Below, in pieces: positions 115-6,245 of a DNA stretch of 6,245 nt. The notes under the pieces were generated by a model that ran no database searches, was not told the origin of the DNA, and worked only from the letters and a program-made list of their open reading frames with translations. Numbering within the stretch: position 1 is the first letter of the stretch; every line of letters starts with the position of its first letter. The stretch is from a virus (taxonomy: Duplodnaviria > Heunggongvirae > Uroviricota > Caudoviricetes). The translations under genes were made by a program, and so were the position numbers. Location of the stretch: IMG/VR virus record IMGVR_UViG_3300014625_000039; one strand, 5' to 3'.

Positions 115-190
115 GCCGATATAGCTCAGTTGGTAGAGCAGCGCATTCGTAATGCGAAGGTCGTAGGTTCGACTCCTATTATCGGCACCA
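115..190 (+). tRNA. thrW: tRNA-Thr, anticodon CGU
   Basis: Folded by hand into a 76-nt cloverleaf: acceptor stem GCCGATA(115-121)/TATCGGC(180-186), D-stem GCTC/GAGC, anticodon loop TTCGTAA with CGT at 148-150, T-loop TTCGACT, discriminator A and encoded CCA (188-190). Anticodon CGU reads ACG (Thr). The symbol is by analogy to enterobacterial thrW, a known phage integration target. Confidence 0.9.
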
Positions 191-204
191 TTTAAATCAA
201 GTAG

Positions 205-1368
205 TTACACATCATTAGTACCTTCCTTATTTTTTGACTGGGACAAATTTGGGACCGATGGGTTCAGGATCGAGTCTATTTGCCGTGCGTGTTCTGTAAG
301 GTGATTAGGTGCAAGGTGAGCATATCGACGAACCATTTCGATAGACTCCCAGCCTCCCATTTCCTGTAACACTGACAACGGGACTCCGGCTTGAACCAGC
401 CAACTTGCCCAGGTGTGTCTCAAGTCGTGAAATCTGAAATCATCAATACCAGCCCGTCTCAGCGCCGCTTTCCAGGCTGTGTTTGCGTCATACCGCATCT
501 TCCTTACTGTTGGCGCTTTCGTTCCGTCTGGTTTGGTACAGCTTTCCTTGTACACAAATACCCAACGGTGATGATTCCCGATTTGTTTTTTCAAAACGCG
601 ACATGCAGTATCATTCAGCGCAACGCCGATTGCGCGGTTTGATTTACTCTCTTCCGGGTTTATCCATGCCACCCGGCGCTGCATATCTATTTGTTGCCAT
701 TCAAGGTTGATGATGTTCGAGCGTCTTAAGCCTGTTGCCAGTGCAAATTCAACAACAGACTTTAATGGCTCTGGACATTCATCAATCAGCCTTTGTGCTT
801 CATGGGGCTCCAGCCAGCGGATCCGTTTATTCTTTGGTTGAGGCACTTTAATAATTGGTGCCTTATCCAGCATTTTCCATTCACGCTCTGCGGCTCTTAG
901 TAGGGCCTTTATAAATGAAAGATGCGTAGCCTTCGTTGCAACGGACGCTGGTTTTGGCGTGTATTCTGGAACAGGTTTCCCTTTTTTTCTGCATGCTTCT
1001 GCCCTGAGTTTCCAGTTTTCCTCATGACGCCGGTTCGTCATTTTCTGCATTGCTGAATAAATTTTTGATTCAGTAATGTCTCTTAGTTGCATTCCTGCGA
1101 AATGTTGAAGCCAGAATCCGATCCGGCTTTTGTCATCGTCCAGTGATTTTTTATGTGCTTTCTCTTCAAGCCACCTGACACACGCTTCCTCGAACGTTAT
1201 ATCAGGTATTTCACCAAGTTTGCTGACCCGCCATGCTTCAGCCTTTAGCTTGTCATGGAGTTCTGTCGCCTGCCTTTTGTCCTTTGTTCCAAGAGACTGT
1301 TTAAATCTTTTACCGTTCGGCAATGTGAAACTGGCGTACCATATTTCACCTCTGCGGAAGAGTGACAT
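205..1368 (-). CDS. int: Site-specific tyrosine integrase, P22 Int-like
   Basis: 387-aa ORF with ATG at 1368-1366 preceded by AGGA. The C-terminal catalytic region [39 protein letters not shown] carries the R..H..R..Y tyrosine-recombinase signature. The N-terminus [24 protein letters not shown] closely matches my recollection of phage P22 Int, which also integrates at thrW. Confidence 0.93.
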
Positions 1369-1595
1369 TTTCTTTCCTCTGTTATGCCATCACCCGCGCT
1401 CACCTGGACAGTATGCAGCGGAGACTGAAGAGCCGCAATGCAGGCTTGTCGTGTTGTGAGGTAAGGAGATTTATTCTTAGTGGGATCTTTGCGTGTTGCC
1501 TGAAGACGCCCTGTGCGTATCCAGTTAATGGCAGTCGGTCTGGATATCTTGAGAAAATGACAGGCCTCATCGAGTGTGAGGCTGTATGGCTCCAT
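1245..1595 (-). CDS. xis: Excisionase (Xis), P22-like, with helix-turn-helix
   Basis: Start taken at the internal Met (ATG 1595-1593) preceded by GAGGTG, not at the 144-aa maximal ORF start. The 116-aa product begins [31 protein letters not shown], a Xis/AlpA-type DNA-binding motif. Its 3-prime end overlaps the int 5-prime end by 124 nt in another frame. Confidence 0.8.
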
Positions 1596-1900
1596 TATTT
1601 CACCTCTTGCTGTGACATTGTTGAAAAATGGATACCAGCTCGTTGCTGCCAGACGATCCAACCGAGAGTCATATCCCATGCCATGTATTCGTTATCGCCG
1701 TTTTTTGCTCTCCGACGATCTACTAAGTCACCGAAACGCTTTTCCATGAATAATTCATAAGCTTCGCGTTCATCTGGTTCTACTTCCAGCGATAGGAGTG
1801 CGATTTCATAAGCACGGCGCTCAATATCGTCTCGCACGTCAAGGCTGCTGATACGCTCTTTAATTTCTTTAATCAGTTCTTTGTCGGTAAAAGTGATCAT
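1595..1900 (-). CDS. Hypothetical small acidic phage protein (101 aa), function unknown
   Basis: Complete ORF; its stop overlaps the xis start as TAATG, and its own start overlaps the upstream gene stop in the same way. GGAGG lies about 10 nt upstream of the ATG. Rich in Asp/Glu; no motif I can name. Confidence 0.6.
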   Translation of the reverse strand: MITFTDKELIKEIKERISSLDVRDDIERRAYEIALLSLEVEPDEREAYELFMEKRFGDLVDRRRAKNGDNEYMAWDMTLGWIVWQQRAGIHFSTMSQQEVK

Positions 1901-2262
1901 TATGCTCCAGCCTCCGGTGCTTTTGGCATTATTGCCCAGTGAGTGATATTGACGTTTTCAAGGTCCCCGACCTGAAATGTCCACTGCCATTCTCCGGTTT
2001 CTTTTTGTCCCCAGGTGTACCAGAGAGAACGCCAGCCAATTAGCCAGCCTTCTCCGTTAGCATCGAATAACAAAACACTTTCATTTGCTGGTGGCAGTTC
2101 AGTTGACACTGGTATTACTTTGTTTTCCTGTGCTGCACATTTAGCTTCAAGCGCATCGAATTTACGCACCAGGTATTCAGCATCTGTTTCATTCACTTTC
2201 AGATCTCGCGGTACACATCTCCCACGAAGAAACCCTTCCATTTCGAAAACATTCATGCGCAT
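1900..2262 (-). CDS. DUF551-like phage protein (120 aa)
   Basis: The C-terminal half (GEGWLIGWRSLWYTWGQKETGEWQWTFQVGDLENVNITHWAIMPKAPE) shows the Trp-rich pattern ending in THW..P..PE that I associate with the phage DUF551 family. TAATG-coupled to the downstream gene. Start codon uncertain (ATG at 2262 or 2256, no clear SD). Confidence 0.65.
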   Translation of the reverse strand: MRMNVFEMEGFLRGRCVPRDLKVNETDAEYLVRKFDALEAKCAAQENKVIPVSTELPPANESVLLFDANGEGWLIGWRSLWYTWGQKETGEWQWTFQVGDLENVNITHWAIMPKAPEAGA

Positions 2263-2287
2263 TTGCGTATCAAAGTGGCTGTTGCGG

Positions 2288-2560
2288 ATGATGATTGTGC
2301 TTCACGTCATGTGCCTGCTGCCGCTGCTGACCGGTTGCGGAAGTACGCGAACAGTTTACGTACCGATTCCGGCGGTACCGTTGCCAGCAAGCCTGACTAC
2401 TGAAACTCCCCAGCCAGTCATTCCCGAGCCGCTGACCTATGGGGCCAGTCTGGATCTGAATGTGAGCCTGCTTTCGGCGTTGGGACAATGCAATATTGAC
2501 AAAGCGGGGATTCGAAGTATCGAGATGCGCCGTAACGCTTTGCTGGCAGCAGTCAAATAG
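2288..2560 (+). CDS. Putative outer-membrane lipoprotein, proline-rich, Rz1/o-spanin-like (about 90 aa)
   Basis: N-terminus MMIVLHVMCLLPLLTGC is a hydrophobic signal peptide ending in the lipobox LLTG|C, followed by a Pro-rich segment (VYVPIPAVPLPASLTTETPQPVIPEP) and a later Cys. An alternative start at ATG 2255 would add a basic n-region (MRICVSKWLLR). No clear SD at either start. Confidence 0.45.
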   Translation: MMIVLHVMCLLPLLTGCGSTRTVYVPIPAVPLPASLTTETPQPVIPEPLTYGASLDLNVSLLSALGQCNIDKAGIRSIEMRRNALLAAVK

Positions 2561-2586
2561 TCCGGACAAAGAACAGGAATATATTT

Positions 2587-2937
2587 ATGCCCCCTCGAAC
2601 TCCAAAAGCCTGCCGCGTTCGCGGCTGCCGTAATACCACGACAGACCCGTCAGGCTACTGCGAAAGCCACAAAAGCGAAGGCTGGAAGCAATACAAGTCA
2701 GGACAATCCCGTCATCAGCGCGGTTATGGTTCTAAGTGGGATGTTATCCGTGTGCGTGTGCTGCAACGTGACAAAGGCCTGTGTCAGTTATGTCTGCGTG
2801 CTGGTGTGGCGCGTGAAGCGAAAACCGTTGATCACATCATCCCTAAAGCACATGGCGGCACTGATGCCGACAGTAATCTGCAGAGTCTGTGCTGGCCGTG
2901 TCATAAGGCGAAGACGGCCCGTGAACGGCTTAAGTGA
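2587..2937 (+). CDS. HNH endonuclease (terminase-associated type)
   Basis: 116-aa ORF with AGGA 8 nt upstream of the ATG. Cys pairs (CRVRGC, CQLC, CWPC) and the HNH core DHIIPKAHGG...N...H are present. Its position immediately upstream of terS/terL is typical of HK97-like packaging modules. Confidence 0.85.
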   Translation: MPPRTPKACRVRGCRNTTTDPSGYCESHKSEGWKQYKSGQSRHQRGYGSKWDVIRVRVLQRDKGLCQLCLRAGVAREAKTVDHIIPKAHGGTDADSNLQSLCWPCHKAKTARERLK

Positions 2938-3062
2938 TAATAACTCTCAACTGTCTGAGGGGAGGGGCGGGTCAAATCTCTGTGACCTGACGTCTTCCGG
3001 ACTGCCCGCCCCATCGTTTTTTTATACCCGCGAAAAATGAAATTTAACCAGGAGTGCCGCAT
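2938..3062. promoter_or_regulatory. Intergenic region between HNH and terS: candidate cos / packaging-initiation site
   Basis: 125-bp non-coding gap exactly where HK97-like phages place cos (between the HNH gene and terS). It contains the G-rich run GAGGGGAGGGGCGGG and an 8-bp inverted repeat GGGGCGGG (2964-2971) / CCCGCCCC (3005-3012). Assignment is by position and composition only. Confidence 0.35.
2964..3023 (+). terminator. Possible intrinsic terminator-like hairpin with T-run (alternative reading of the cos-region repeat)
   Basis: GC stem GGGGCGGG/CCCGCCCC followed 4 nt later by TTTTTTT (3017-3023). The 33-nt loop is long for a classical terminator, so this is weak. Confidence 0.3.
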
Positions 3063-3557
3063 ATGGCTGGAACGGCGGGGCGTTCCGGGCGTCGCCCCAA
3101 GCCAACGGCGCGCAAGGCGCTGGCCGGAAACCCCGGCAAGCGAGCCCTGAACAAAGATGAACCTGTTTTTACGCCCATCAAAGGCGTTGAGCCACCGGAG
3201 TGGTTCGCAGAAGAAAATCTCCCTCTCGCCACGATCATGTGGCAACTGACAACCAAAGAACTCTGCGGTCAGGGCCTGTTGTGCGTGACTGACCTCGCGG
3301 TGCTTGAGCGGTGGTGCGTGGCCTATGAGTTCTGGCGACGTGCCGTGAAAAATATTGCCATACAGGGCAACACCATCACCGGTGCAATGGGCGGCAGGGT
3401 CAAAAATCCGGAGCTGACCGCCAAAAAAGAACAGGAGTCCGAGATGAGCAGCACGGGGGCAATGCTCGGACTCGACCCCAGCAGCCGCCAGCGTCTGATT
3501 GGCCTGGCGGGGCAGAAGAAAGCCACTAACCCGTTTCTGAAAATCATCGAGTCATGA
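3063..3557 (+). CDS. terS: Terminase small subunit (P27/HK97-like family)
   Basis: Start chosen at ATG 3063, with AGGAG 8 nt upstream; the ORF track's upstream start at 3054 is GTG. The basic N-terminus ([29 protein letters not shown]) and overall length fit P27-type small terminases. Its stop overlaps the terL start (ATGA at 3554-3557). Confidence 0.8.
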
Positions 3558-5287
3558 GCCGGAAATCTTACCCCAACGTAAATGCTGCCAATCAGTATGC
3601 CCGTGATGTTGTGCGCGGAAAGATTGTGGCCTGCCAGTTTGTGATTCAGGCCTGCCAGCGCCATCTTGATGACCTGATGGCGGAAAAAAGTAAGTCGTTT
3701 CGTTACCGCTTCGACAAGGACCTGGCTGAACGGGCCGCCAAATTTATTCAGCTGTTGCCGCACACCAAGGGTGAGTGGGCATTCAAGAGGATGCCCATCA
3801 CGCTGGAGCCGTGGCAGCTATTTGTGGTCTGCTGTGCGTTTGGCTGGGTCAATAAAGGGTCCCGGCTGCGCCGCTTCCGGGAGGTGTATACCGAAATCCC
3901 CCGTAAGAACGGCAAATCGGCAATCTCTGCCGGTGTTGCCCTGTATTGTTTTGCCTGTGATAACGAGTTTGGCGCGGAAGTGTATTCCGGTGCCACGACA
4001 GAGAAACAGGCGTGGGAAGTCTTTCGCCCGGCGCGACTGATGTGTAAACGCACACCCATGCTGACGGAAGCGTTCGGGATTGAGGTTAACGCCTCAAACA
4101 TGAATCGTCCGGAGGATGGCGCGCGGTTTGAACCGCTGATCGGTAACCCCGGTGATGGTTCATCACCCCACTGTGCGGTGGTGGATGAATATCACGAGCA
4201 CGCCACCGATGCGCTTTACACCACGATGCTTACCGGGATGGGGGCGCGACGTCAGCCACTGATGTGGGCCATTACTACTGCCGGGTACAACATTGAGGGG
4301 CCGTGCTACGACAAGCGACGGGAAGTTATCGAGATGCTCAACGGGTCGGTACCCAACGATGAACTGTTCGGGATCATCTATACCGTTGACGAAGGCGATG
4401 ACTGGACCGACCCGCAGGTGCTGGAAAAAGCTAACCCGAATATTGGCGTGTCGGTTTATCGCGAATTTTTGTTAAGTCAGCAGCAGCGTGCGAAAAATAA
4501 CGCCCGTCTGGCAAACGTCTTTAAAACAAAACACCTCAATATCTGGGTGTCGGCGCGTTCGGCGTATTTCAACCTGGTGAGCTGGCAGAGCTGCGAGGAT
4601 AAATCACTGACCCTTGAGCAGTTCGAGGGGCAGCCGTGCATTCTGGCCTTTGACCTGGCGCGTAAACTGGATATGAACAGCATGGCGCGACTTTATACCC
4701 GCGAGATTGACGGTAAAACGCATTACTACAGTGTGGCCCCGCGTTTCTGGGTACCGTATGACACGGTGTACAGCGTCGAGAAAAATGAAGATCTACGGAC
4801 AGCCGAACGCTTTCAGAAATGGGTGGAAATGGGCGTTCTGACCGTTACCGATGGTGCGGAAGTGGATTATCGCTACATCCTCGAGGAGGCTAAAGCGGCG
4901 AACAAAATCAGCCCGGTCAGTGAGTCACCCATCGACCCCTTCGGGGCGACCGGGCTGTCACATGACCTTGCTGATGAAGACCTGAACCCCATCACTATCA
5001 TTCAGAACTACACCAACATGTCCGATCCGATGAAAGAGCTGGAAGCGGCAATTGAATCGGGGCGCTTTCATCATGATGGCAATCCCATCATGACCTGGTG
5101 TATCGGCAACGTGGTCGGCAAAACCATTCCGGGTAACGATGATGTGGTGAAGCCCGTCAAAGAGCAGGCGGAAAACAAAATCGATGGTGCAGTTGCGCTG
5201 ATTATGGCGGTTGGCAGAGCCATGCTGTACGAGAAAGAAGACACGCTGTCTGACCACATTGAGTCCTATGGGATCCGCTCGCTTTAA
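3554..5287 (+). CDS. terL: Terminase large subunit (HK97-like Terminase_1 family)
   Basis: 577-aa ORF with a deviant Walker A (EIPRKNGKS) in the N-terminal ATPase region and an acidic-residue-rich C-terminal nuclease-like region. Translationally coupled to terS. Confidence 0.93.
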
Positions 5288-5298
5288 CTGAGGTAATT

Positions 5299-5481
5299 AT
5301 GATCATGCTGATTCTCGCGCCTCTGGTGGGCGTGCTGGGGGCGCTTTTGCTGGCGTATGGTGCCTGGCTGATTTATCCCCCGGCGGGGTTTGTTGTTGCC
5401 GGGGCGTTGTGCCTGTTCTGGTCGTGGCTGGTGGCGCGATATCTCGACCGTACACAGTCGTCTGTCGGCGGAGGTAAATAG
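5299..5481 (+). CDS. Small membrane protein, two predicted transmembrane helices (60 aa); function unknown
   Basis: GAGG lies 5 nt upstream of ATG 5299. Sequence [60 protein letters not shown] has two hydrophobic segments separated by a YPP turn and a polar C-terminal tail. Its stop TAG overlaps the GTG start of the portal gene. Confidence 0.5.
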
Positions 5482-6245
5482 TGTTCTTTTCGGGATTATT
5501 TCAACGAAAAAGTGTCGCACCAGTGACCACGCCAGCAGAGCTGGCGGATGCTATCGGGTTGTCCTACGACACCTATACCGGAAAGCAGATCAGCAGCCAG
5601 CGGGCCATGCGACTGACGGCGGTTTTTTCCTGCGTCAGGGTGCTGGCAGAGTCGGTCGGGATGTTGCCCTGCAATCTGTATCACCTGAACGGCAGCCTGA
5701 AAAAGAGAGCCACCGGCGAGCGTCTGCATAAGCTGATCTCCACGCATCCCAATGGCTATATGACGCCGCAGGAGTTCTGGGAGCTGGTGGTCACCTGTCT
5801 GTGCTTGCGGGGAAACTTTTACGCCTACAAAGTGAAAGCATTTGGCGAAGTGGCTGAACTGCTGCCCGTCGATCCCGGCTGTGTGGTACCGAAGCTTAAC
5901 AGTAGCTGGGAGCCGGTCTATCAGGTCACATTCCCGGACGGCTCCACGGATGTACTGAGCCAGGAAGATATCTGGCATGTGCGCACGCTGACGCTGGACG
6001 GTCTGGTGGGACTGAATCCCATCGCCTATGCCCGCGAGGCAATATCGCTGGCAGCTGCGACCGAAGAGCACGGGGCCAGACTGTTCAGCAATGGTGCGGT
6101 GACGTCCGGTGTGTTGCGTACAGAGCAGACGCTGTCGGATCAGGCTTATGAGCGCCTGAAGAAAGATTTTGAGGAGCGTCACACCGGGCTTGGCAATGCT
6201 CACCGCCCGATGATCCTTGAGATGGGGCTGGACTGGAAGTCGATG
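5481..6245 (+). CDS. Portal protein, HK97 family, N-terminal 255 codons (3-prime end beyond window)
   Basis: Not in the ORF track because it is open to the window end. Hand translation from GTG 5481 (GGAGG 7 nt upstream) gives [104 protein letters not shown]..., uninterrupted to position 6245. This resembles HK97-type portal N-termini and sits in the expected place after terL. Confidence 0.85.
   Translation, partial: MFFSGLFQRKSVAPVTTPAELADAIGLSYDTYTGKQISSQRAMRLTAVFSCVRVLAESVGMLPCNLYHLNGSLKKRATGERLHKLISTHPNGYMTPQEFWELVVTCLCLRGNFYAYKVKAFGEVAELLPVDPGCVVPKLNSSWEPVYQVTFPDGSTDVLSQEDIWHVRTLTLDGLVGLNPIAYAREAISLAAATEEHGARLFSNGAVTSGVLRTEQTLSDQAYERLKKDFEERHTGLGNAHRPMILEMGLDWKSM

What the first reader, a model, noticed from the sequence alone, without database searches (positions are those of the whole stretch)
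1245..3062. Integration module directly abuts the head-packaging module, with no immunity, replication or lysis genes between
Only about 1 kb separates xis from the HNH-terS-terL-portal operon, and it is filled by two small accessory genes and one lipoprotein. A lambdoid prophage would have tens of kb here (recombination, immunity, replication, antitermination, lysis). Two explanations fit: (a) an internal deletion that fused the ea region to the late region, leaving a cryptic remnant; (b) a compact satellite-like element that encodes its own capsid and packaging proteins and borrows tails, as in capsid-forming phage-inducible islands. The element also looks mosaic, with a P22-like int/xis next to an HK97-like packaging set. 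By eye the int module looks somewhat more AT-rich than the terminase module; I did not compute this.
Basis: partly seen in the sequence, partly recalled or inferred. Interest (0 to 1): 0.75.

Follow-up and report, generated by a model that had tools for sequence, protein, structure and literature searches.

The report
Deletion remnant of an SfV-like prophage
This is an ordinary SfV-type temperate phage integrated at the thrW tRNA gene of E. coli that lost about 13.6 kb (immunity, replication, antitermination and most lysis genes) in one internal deletion, leaving a dead remnant rather than a new kind of satellite element.

Summary
The layout is real. The genes run int, xis, two small genes (YfdT-like orf28 and DUF551 orf29), then HNH-terS-terL-portal about 0.9 kb further on. 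GC content is 46.6% on the int side and 55.8% on the packaging side. The "lipoprotein" is the Rz1/LysC o-spanin, preceded by the last 44 codons of Rz, so a stump of the lysis cassette survives.

Window 145-2269 matches phage SfV 20592-22716 (99.1%). Window 2268-2995 matches SfV 36347-37074 (99.0%). The sequence then runs through cos into terS and terL. The two arms meet at 2268/2269 on a 2-nt TA microhomology. SfV has 13,630 bp there, from orf30 to the 5' part of Rz.

E. coli ECCHD184 carries a full-length ~39-kb prophage at the same proA-thrW site, and phages SfV, SfII and SfIV have the same order. The junction is absent from 5,426 complete E. coli genomes and from both contig collections. 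It occurs only in four contigs (two or three samples) that are 100% identical to the window. One of them also has the capsid gene fused to the baseplate-J gene.

Reading (a), internal deletion, is supported. Reading (b), a capsid-forming satellite, is not. The closest known analogue is K-12 cryptic prophage e14. Interest is low.

The parts
115..190 (+). thrW, tRNA-Thr(CGT); bacterial attachment target
   Evidence: ARAGORN; proA-thrW context in L014, L025 and L001
145..191 (.). attL core: homology to the phages starts at 145. The same 47 nt recur as attR at the far end of the full-length prophage in ECCHD184
   Evidence: phage matches begin at 145; 145-191 = L115 3098-3052, 100%; 46-bp attP reported for SfIV, SfI and SfV in PMC3851460
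205..1368 (-). integrase (387 aa), P22/SfV type
   Evidence: PF00589 E=3e-48; 99.1-99.4% DNA identity to SfV and SfIV int; the exact protein is listed in 28,578 index blocks, and all ten places shown lie next to proA/thrW
1245..1595 (-). excisionase (116-aa form; the ORF is open to 1679), overlapping the 5' end of int
   Evidence: PF12728 HTH_17 E=3e-8; annotated xis in SfV, SfII and SfIV
1595..1900 (-). orf28 / YfdT-like small gene (101 aa)
1900..2262 (-). orf29 (120 aa, weak DUF551 match)
2253..2269 (-). last 17 nt of orf30 (yfdR, 5'-deoxynucleotidase); the rest of the gene is deleted
   Evidence: SfV orf30 = 22700-23236; the window's left arm ends at SfV 22716
2268..2269 (.). deletion junction; 'TA' is shared by both parental flanks (2-nt microhomology)
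2269..2403 (+). 3' remnant of Rz (i-spanin): last 44 of 130 codons, with no start codon of its own
   Evidence: SfV Rz = 36090-36482; the right arm starts at SfV 36347
2288..2560 (+).
   Evidence: PF23793 LysC E=9e-18; the cluster representative is a 90-aa 'Rz1-like lysis system protein LysC'
2587..2937 (+). HNH endonuclease, packaging accessory
   Evidence: PF01844 E=5e-16
3003..3012 (+). cos cohesive-end sequence TGCCCGCCCC
   Evidence: single exact match; sequence determined for SfI in PMC3636060; the SfV and SfIV records start at window 2996
3063..3557 (+). small terminase, P27 family (164 aa; the ORF is open from GTG 3054)
   Evidence: PF05119 E=4e-20; annotation of relatives
3554..5287 (+). 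large terminase (577 aa)
   Evidence: PF03354 and PF20441; the identical protein occurs in full-length prophages L005-L013
5299..5481 (+). ymfR, 60-aa membrane protein
5481..6245 (+). portal gene, first 255 codons; it runs off the window
   Evidence: PF04860 E=4e-59

Best explanation
The window is the left end of a defective prophage of the SfV/SfII/SfIV/e14 family. These are lambdoid-organised phages with a P22-type integrase, an HK97-type head and a Mu-type tail. This one is integrated in thrW next to proA in E. coli. A single illegitimate-recombination event at a 2-nt TA microhomology joined the 3' end of orf30 (yfdR) to the middle of Rz. It removed about 13.6 kb by SfV coordinates (22717-36346): orf30-33, cI, cro, the replication genes, dam, rusA, Q, the late promoter region, holin, endolysin and the 5' two thirds of Rz. 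What remains is int-xis-orf28-orf29 on one strand and Rz1-HNH-cos-terS-terL-ymfR-portal on the other, diverging from the junction. Inferred, not shown: the early leftward promoter and the Q-dependent late promoter both lay in the deleted block in the annotated relatives, so both surviving gene sets are probably silent, and the element can neither replicate, lyse nor be induced. It is a recent, lineage-specific cryptic remnant and not a functional compact element.
For: Both arms map to single functional phages. Window 145-2269 = SfV 20592-22716 (99.1%), SfIV (99.4%) and SfII (98.7%). Window 2268-2995 = SfV 36347-37074 (99.0%). Window 2996 onward = position 1 onward of SfV, SfIV and SfII (96-97%). 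The annotated SfV, SfIV and SfII genomes have cI/cro, replication, Q and S-R-Rz between those points. E. coli ECCHD184 has a full-length prophage of about 39 kb at proA-thrW with the same left arm (99.4%). In it, 12.7 kb separate points that are 315 nt apart in the window, and a 47-nt attR repeat is present. The terL protein is identical in nine full-length prophage contexts. L006, L008 and L013 differ from the window by 1-2 nt over 3,978 nt of the right arm and have the complete lysis and early region, so the deletion is recent. The junction is rare. It is in 0 of 5,426 complete E. coli genomes, 0 genome contigs and 0 metagenome contigs. Of 75 fetched loci with at least 3 kb upstream of HNH, int lies within 3 kb only in L014 and L025, the window's own lineage. 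The junction is real: it is 100% identical in L014, L025, L026 and L027. There is no promoter-like site above chance around the junction. Sibling contig L026, 100% identical to window 1559-6245, shows further decay, with capsid codon ~109 fused to baseplate J.
Against: The window ends in the portal gene, so the right end of this particular copy (attR, element size, state of head and tail genes) was not seen. The second deletion is shown only in a sibling contig from another sample. I could not link the nearest right-arm relatives (L006 type) to a thrW integrase. A join between two different resident prophages, rather than a deletion within one, is therefore not formally excluded. All surviving ORFs are intact, which is expected for a recent event but also does not exclude residual function.
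Confidence: 0.93

Rival explanations
1. A compact satellite of the capsid-forming PICI type: it keeps int plus its own packaging and capsid genes and borrows tails, lysis and induction signals from a helper phage.
For: int, HNH, terS, terL and portal lie close together, an intact cos is present, and no holin or tail gene is visible inside the window. This superficially resembles the cfPICI core gene list (PMC10085698).
Against: There is no AlpA/MerR-type regulator and no primase-replicase between int and the packaging genes. Rz1 and a truncated Rz mark a broken lysis cassette. The DNA is 96-99% identical to complete phages, and terL is 100% identical to that of full-length prophages, whereas cfPICI packaging and capsid genes form lineages separate from phages. 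The 100%-identical sibling L026 has a truncated capsid, no head-tail adaptor or connector, and baseplate-J and gp48 fragments, which are 'forbidden' tail components in that model. The junction is confined to one rare lineage.
Confidence: 0.02
2. A rearranged but otherwise complete prophage: the early, immunity and lysis block was moved distal to the tail genes and not lost.
For: The right part of the element is outside the window, so relocation cannot be excluded from the window alone.
Against: The junction cuts two genes (orf30 and Rz) at a 2-nt microhomology. That is the signature of a deletion, not of a modular exchange. Sibling L026 continues portal, protease, truncated capsid, baseplate J, gp48 with no early genes. 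No relative among more than 100 fetched loci has such an order.
Confidence: 0.03
3. The junction arose by illegitimate recombination between two different resident SfV-like prophages, giving a chromosomal inversion or a large deletion, and not by a deletion within one prophage.
For: The left arm is closest to SfIV and SfV. The right arm beyond cos is closest to prophages whose integrase I could not identify (L006 type), and close relatives sit at other sites such as ssrA.
Against: SfV alone supplies both junction-flanking sequences at 99% identity and in the right orientation and order. Mosaicism beyond cos is normal in this family. An intramolecular 13.6-kb deletion needs one event with no effect on the rest of the chromosome.
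Confidence: 0.02

Closest known systems
Shigella flexneri serotype-converting phages SfV, SfIV and SfII (also SfI)
   Same: They share the thrW integration with the same att core and P22-type int/xis, orf28 and orf29 at 98.7-99.4% DNA identity. They share the Rz1-HNH-cos(TGCCCGCCCC)-terS-terL-portal stretch at 96-99%, in the same order and orientation.
   Different: Those phages are complete (37-41 kb) and inducible. Here the 11.6-13.6 kb between orf29 and Rz1 is missing. Whether gtr serotype-conversion genes are present cannot be seen in the window.
E. coli K-12 cryptic prophage e14
   Same: It belongs to the same phage family: 97.2% DNA identity to window 4151-5888 and to L026 6163-7440. It is also a remnant made by internal deletions that fuse truncated genes, namely replication|terL (ymfN = oweE+aaaE) and portal|baseplate J (beeE|jayE). 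It also retains int, xis, ymfR and ymfQ.
   Different: e14 sits at icd with a different integrase. It keeps its repressor, cro and part of the early region, and has lost HNH, terS and the 5' part of terL. The deletion endpoints differ.
E. coli ET474 thrW prophage remnant (NZ_CP100954.1)
   Same: It has the same locus and the same int-xis-yfdT-orf29 arm (99.3%). It also lacks the immunity, replication, Q, holin and endolysin genes and joins the ea region to the HNH-terS-terL operon.
   Different: It is an independent event. The endpoints are different, with a complete yfdR and an IS1 at the junction. Complete head and tail modules are retained.
Capsid-forming PICIs (for example EcCIEDL933)
   Same: int lies near HNH, terS, terL and portal, with cos-type packaging.
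   Different: There is no regulator or primase-replicase module. The genes are phage-identical and not of the satellite lineage. A broken lysis cassette is present. The sibling copy has a truncated capsid and baseplate fragments.

Membership tests
SfV-family lambdoid prophage (SfV/SfII/SfIV/SfI/e14 group) | Integration into thrW by a P22-type tyrosine integrase with a ~46-bp att core equal to the tRNA 3' end | tested here: met
   tRNA-Thr at 115-190. Phage homology starts at 145. The 47-nt repeat recurs as attR in ECCHD184. PF00589 match. PMC3851460 describes the att core.
SfV-family lambdoid prophage (SfV/SfII/SfIV/SfI/e14 group) | High nucleotide identity and collinearity with sequenced family members on both sides | tested here: met
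   98.7-99.4% on the left arm and 96-99% on the right arm, in the same order and orientation
SfV-family lambdoid prophage (SfV/SfII/SfIV/SfI/e14 group) | cos packaging module: HNH, cos TGCCCGCCCC, P27-type TerS, TerL, portal | tested here: met
   PMC3636060
SfV-family lambdoid prophage (SfV/SfII/SfIV/SfI/e14 group) | Complete early region (cI/cro, replication, Q) and S-R-Rz/Rz1 lysis cassette, i.e. a functional phage | tested here: not met
   The region is absent between 2262 and 2587. Only Rz1 and 44 codons of Rz remain. The element is therefore a defective member.
SfV-family lambdoid prophage (SfV/SfII/SfIV/SfI/e14 group) | Mu-type contractile tail genes and (in Shigella phages) gtr genes next to attR | not testable with these tools
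   These lie outside the window. Sibling L026 shows only baseplate-J and gp48 fragments. The 31.8-kb contig carrying the fusion proteins could not be fetched.
Capsid-forming PICI (SatelliteFinder model, PMC10085698) | Integrase | tested here: met
Capsid-forming PICI (SatelliteFinder model, PMC10085698) | Regulator (AlpA/MerR/Stl type) and primase-replicase module next to int | tested here: not met
   Between int and HNH there are only xis (HTH_17), orf28, orf29 (DUF551), the Rz stump and Rz1
Capsid-forming PICI (SatelliteFinder model, PMC10085698) | HNH, terS, terL and portal | tested here: met
Capsid-forming PICI (SatelliteFinder model, PMC10085698) | Intact capsid, protease, head-tail adaptor and connector | tested here: not met
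   Not visible in the window. In L026 (100% identical over 4,687 nt) the protease is intact, the capsid is cut at codon ~109, and the adaptor and connector are deleted.
Capsid-forming PICI (SatelliteFinder model, PMC10085698) | No tail or holin genes ('forbidden' components), and packaging genes of a lineage distinct from phages | tested here: not met
   L026 carries baseplate-J and gp48 fragments. TerL is 100% identical to that of nine full-length prophage contexts.
Cryptic (defective) prophage formed by internal deletion | A junction that maps to two distant points of a functional relative, truncating genes on both sides | tested here: met
   SfV 22716 | 36347, with orf30 and Rz truncated and a 2-nt microhomology

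The most novel reading that the evidence does not exclude
The remnant is not inert. With Int/Xis, attL, an intact cos and an intact HNH-TerS-TerL-portal-protease set, it might be excised and cos-packaged by a superinfecting SfV-like phage, or interfere with that phage's packaging or assembly. Loss of the cI-to-lysis block recurs in this family (this lineage, ET474, L081, e14), which could reflect selection or deletion hot spots and not only random decay.
Probability: 0.04. Interest if true: 0.5.

Novelty: already known. Interest (0 to 1): 0.12.

Why it matters
It matters little beyond correct annotation. The locus should be labelled a defective SfV-family prophage and not a satellite or a compact mobile element. 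The case is a useful caution. An integrase lying next to a terminase-portal block is not enough to call a capsid-forming satellite. A stump of a lysis gene at the boundary and comparison with full-length relatives settle the question quickly. The side observation that independent deletions in this phage family reuse nearly the same breakpoint in the capsid gene may interest people who study prophage decay.

Tried and rejected
1. An exact 40-mer across the junction found nothing in genome contigs or metagenome contigs. A 300-nt junction probe covered at most 50% in every one of 5,426 complete E. coli genomes. The source lineage is therefore not among the complete genomes.

2. Looking up contexts of the integrase and terL proteins gave almost only full-length prophages. 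The junction-bearing contigs were found only through the context-specific 87-aa GTG-start call of Rz1.

3. I tried to reach attR of the deleted element and failed. The capsid/baseplate fusion protein was not returned by the search for homologous proteins. A terL-based metagenome scan gave 80 loci, none with either junction.

4. A promoter scan around the junction found nothing above chance, so there is no evidence for a new fusion promoter.

5. I tried to link the nearest right-arm relatives (L006, L008) to a thrW integrase through overlap with the integrase-side loci. Identity was only 95-97%, so there is no link.

6. The SfV genome paper (PMC134923) is not held. cos and att facts were taken from the SfI and SfIV papers instead.

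7. The satellite reading was considered and rejected; see the membership table.
Full report
**1. What is in the window**

ARAGORN finds tRNA-Thr(CGT) at 115-190. The ORF list and Pfam scan give the following genes.

| Coordinates | Strand | Gene | Support |
|---|---|---|---|
| 205-1368 | - | integrase | PF00589, E=3e-48 |
| 1245-1595 (open to 1679) | - | excisionase | HTH_17 |
| 1595-1900 | - | orf28, YfdT-like | |
| 1900-2262 | - | orf29 | weak DUF551 match |
| 2288-2560 | + | lipoprotein ORF, Rz1/LysC o-spanin | PF23793, E=9e-18; lipobox LLTGC |
| 2587-2937 | + | HNH | Pfam |
| 3063-3557 | + | terS, P27 type | Pfam |
| 3554-5287 | + | terL | Pfam |
| 5299-5481 | + | ymfR | |
| 5481-6245 | + | portal, 5' part | Pfam |

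The GC impression is also correct, at 46.6% for 205-2268 against 55.8% for 2587-6245. One point is wrong. The 'lipoprotein' is a lysis gene, and the last 44 codons of Rz lie in frame just upstream of it (2269-2403). A stump of the lysis cassette therefore sits at the boundary.

**2. Mapping the boundary**

BLAST against the phage collection and local alignments gave these matches.

| Window | Match | Identity |
|---|---|---|
| 145-2269 | SfV 20592-22716 | 99.1% |
| 145-2269 | SfIV | 99.4% |
| 145-2269 | SfII | 98.7% |
| 2268-2995 | SfV 36347-37074 (end of the linear record, at cos) | 99.0% |
| 2996 onward | position 1 onward of SfV, SfIV and SfII | 96-97% |

At the base level the window reads GCATTTGCGTA|TCAAAGTGG. 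SfV reads GCATTTGCGTA-ACTCC on the left flank and GGAAGATA-TCAAAGTGG on the right flank, so only TA is shared.

In SfV the 13,630 bp between these points hold orf30-33, cI, cro, the replication genes, dam, rusA, Q, the holin S, the endolysin R and the 5' two thirds of Rz. SfIV and SfII have the same order. The junction truncates orf30 (yfdR) to its last 17 nt and Rz to its last 44 codons. This is the signature of an illegitimate-recombination deletion. It is not a module boundary.

**3. Is the compact form conserved or strain-specific?**

- The exact integrase is listed in 28,578 index blocks. All ten contexts shown have it next to proA/thrW, followed by early-region genes.
- The exact terL occurs in nine full-length prophage contexts. 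Three of them (L006, L008, L013) differ from the window by 1-2 nt in 3,978 and have complete early and lysis regions.
- E. coli ECCHD184 has a complete prophage of about 39 kb at the same proA-thrW site. Its left arm is 99.4% identical to the window, 12.7 kb lie where the window has 315 nt, and a 47-nt attR copy of window 145-191 is present.
- The junction is absent from all 5,426 complete E. coli genomes, from the species-representative genomes and from the metagenome contigs.
- Among 75 fetched loci with at least 3 kb upstream of HNH, only L014 and L025 have int within 3 kb.
- The junction occurs, at 100% identity to the window, in GCA_036779455.1 (L014), in a human bile metagenome contig from SRR1920922 (L025, identical over all 6,245 nt, and its Logan counterpart L027) and in ERR7450838 (L026).

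The junction is therefore real, rare and recent.

**4. What lies downstream**

The window stops in the portal gene. The contigs L014, L025 and L027 also stop in the portal gene. L026, which is 100% identical to window 1559-6245, continues through a complete portal and protease. The major capsid gene is then cut after codon ~109 and joined, on a 4-nt microhomology, to the baseplate-J gene (SfII 4754 | 15578, about 10.8 kb missing). A further rearrangement follows in gp48/ymfQ.

I therefore could not reach attR or measure the element. I also cannot prove that the second deletion exists in every junction-bearing genome.

**5. How it works, or rather does not**

Shown:
- The immunity, replication, antitermination, holin and endolysin genes are gone.
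- int/xis and the packaging genes are intact and diverge from the junction.
- The cos cohesive-end sequence TGCCCGCCCC is intact at 3003-3012 (PMC3636060).

Inferred from established lambdoid regulation and the annotated relatives:
- int/xis are normally expressed from the early leftward promoter, and the late operon from the Q-dependent promoter upstream of S. Both lay in the deleted block.
- No promoter-like site above chance was created at the junction.
- The element is thus most likely silent, non-inducible and unable to replicate or lyse.

**6. Comparison with known systems**

The element is a defective member of the SfV/SfII/SfIV/SfI/e14 family. The 'P22-like int next to an HK97-like packaging set' mosaic is that family's normal design.

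The best analogue is the K-12 cryptic prophage e14. It shares 97.2% DNA identity with window 4151-5888. It was also formed by internal deletions that fuse truncated genes, namely replication|terL and portal|baseplate J.

E. coli ET474 carries an independent, IS1-associated loss of the same central block at the same thrW site and keeps complete head and tail modules. L081 is a third variant that lacks cI to Q but keeps a lysis cassette.

Against the capsid-forming PICI definition (PMC10085698) the element fails on four points:
- It has no regulator/primase-replicase module.
- Its packaging genes are not of a lineage distinct from phages.
- The sibling contig lacks an intact capsid and the head-tail connectors.
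- The sibling contig carries tail gene fragments.

**7. Verdict**

This is an ordinary, already known kind of object, a cryptic prophage produced by internal deletion. Interest is low.

The only mildly surprising item is a side observation. Four independent deletions in related prophages (L026, L114, L113, L029) start within 5 nt of each other in the capsid gene, at GCATTGCAGGTG|GGCA. This sequence contains a one-mismatch Chi-like octamer. The deletions end at four different places on 2-5 nt microhomologies. The baseplate-J breakpoint of e14 lies 33 nt from that of L026. This hints at deletion hot spots but was found through a biased search and is unexplained.

Noticed in passing
L026 6130-6133 and 7442 (sibling contig, 100% identical to window 1559-6245): There is a second internal deletion. 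The major capsid gene is cut after codon ~109 and joined on a 4-nt microhomology (GGTG) to the baseplate-J gene, losing about 10.8 kb relative to SfII. A third rearrangement joins gp48/ymfQ to an inverted tail-fibre segment. The fusion proteins (141 aa and 171 aa) are recorded on a 31,781-nt contig that could not be fetched.
   Followed up: partly
L026 ~6133, L114 ~1095, L113 ~3082, L029 ~10330 (equivalent to L006 14138-14142): Four independent deletions in related prophages have left breakpoints within 5 nt of each other in the capsid gene (GCATTGCAGGTG|GGCA, protein ...LERKALQV|G). Their right ends fall in four different genes: head closure, tail sheath, baseplate hub and baseplate J. The microhomologies are 2-5 nt. 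The site contains GCAGGTGG, one mismatch from Chi (GCTGGTGG). This may be a deletion hot spot. The search that found these was biased toward this breakpoint, and no mechanism was established.
   Followed up: partly
L112 (K-12 e14) 11136-11139, compared with L026 6130-6163: The portal|baseplate-J fusion of e14 (beeE|jayE) has its baseplate-J breakpoint only 33 nt from the capsid|baseplate-J breakpoint of L026, although the two events are independent.
   Followed up: partly
L001 (E. coli ET474) 22253-25042; L081 4261-9032; L024; L023; L008 13147-13956: The family decays repeatedly and in different ways. ET474 has an IS1-associated loss of cI through endolysin at the same thrW site. L081 joins yfdP directly to a holin-endolysin-spanin cassette, with no cI to Q block. 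L024 appears, from gene calls only, to fuse the early region to baseplate genes. L023 lacks xis through yfdQ. L008 has a protease to DNA-circularisation-protein deletion.
   Followed up: partly
L028 787 (metagenome scaffold, ERZ28576352): This is another contig in which Rz is interrupted, 54 nt upstream of the window's junction. Unrelated minus-strand genes (one with DUF4752) lie on the other side. It is either a further independent rearrangement or a different module boundary.
   Followed up: no
window ~5916-6245 (and 31 nt beyond the window end); contig ends of L027, L014 and L025: Three junction-bearing contigs, from two samples plus the NCBI assembly GCA_036779455.1, all end inside the portal gene, at window-equivalent positions 5916, 6204 and 6276. 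This suggests a repeat there, for example a second related prophage in the same genome or sample, that breaks short-read assemblies.
   Followed up: no
window 2297-2560: Gene callers give Rz1 a GTG-start 87-aa product only in a truncated-Rz context: 5 contigs carry it (four of the junction lineage plus L028, where Rz is broken 54 nt further upstream), whereas the normal 59- or 90-aa calls are on well over 1,000 contigs. This made the exact protein a usable marker for broken-Rz contigs when exact junction DNA searches of the contig collections found nothing.
   Followed up: yes
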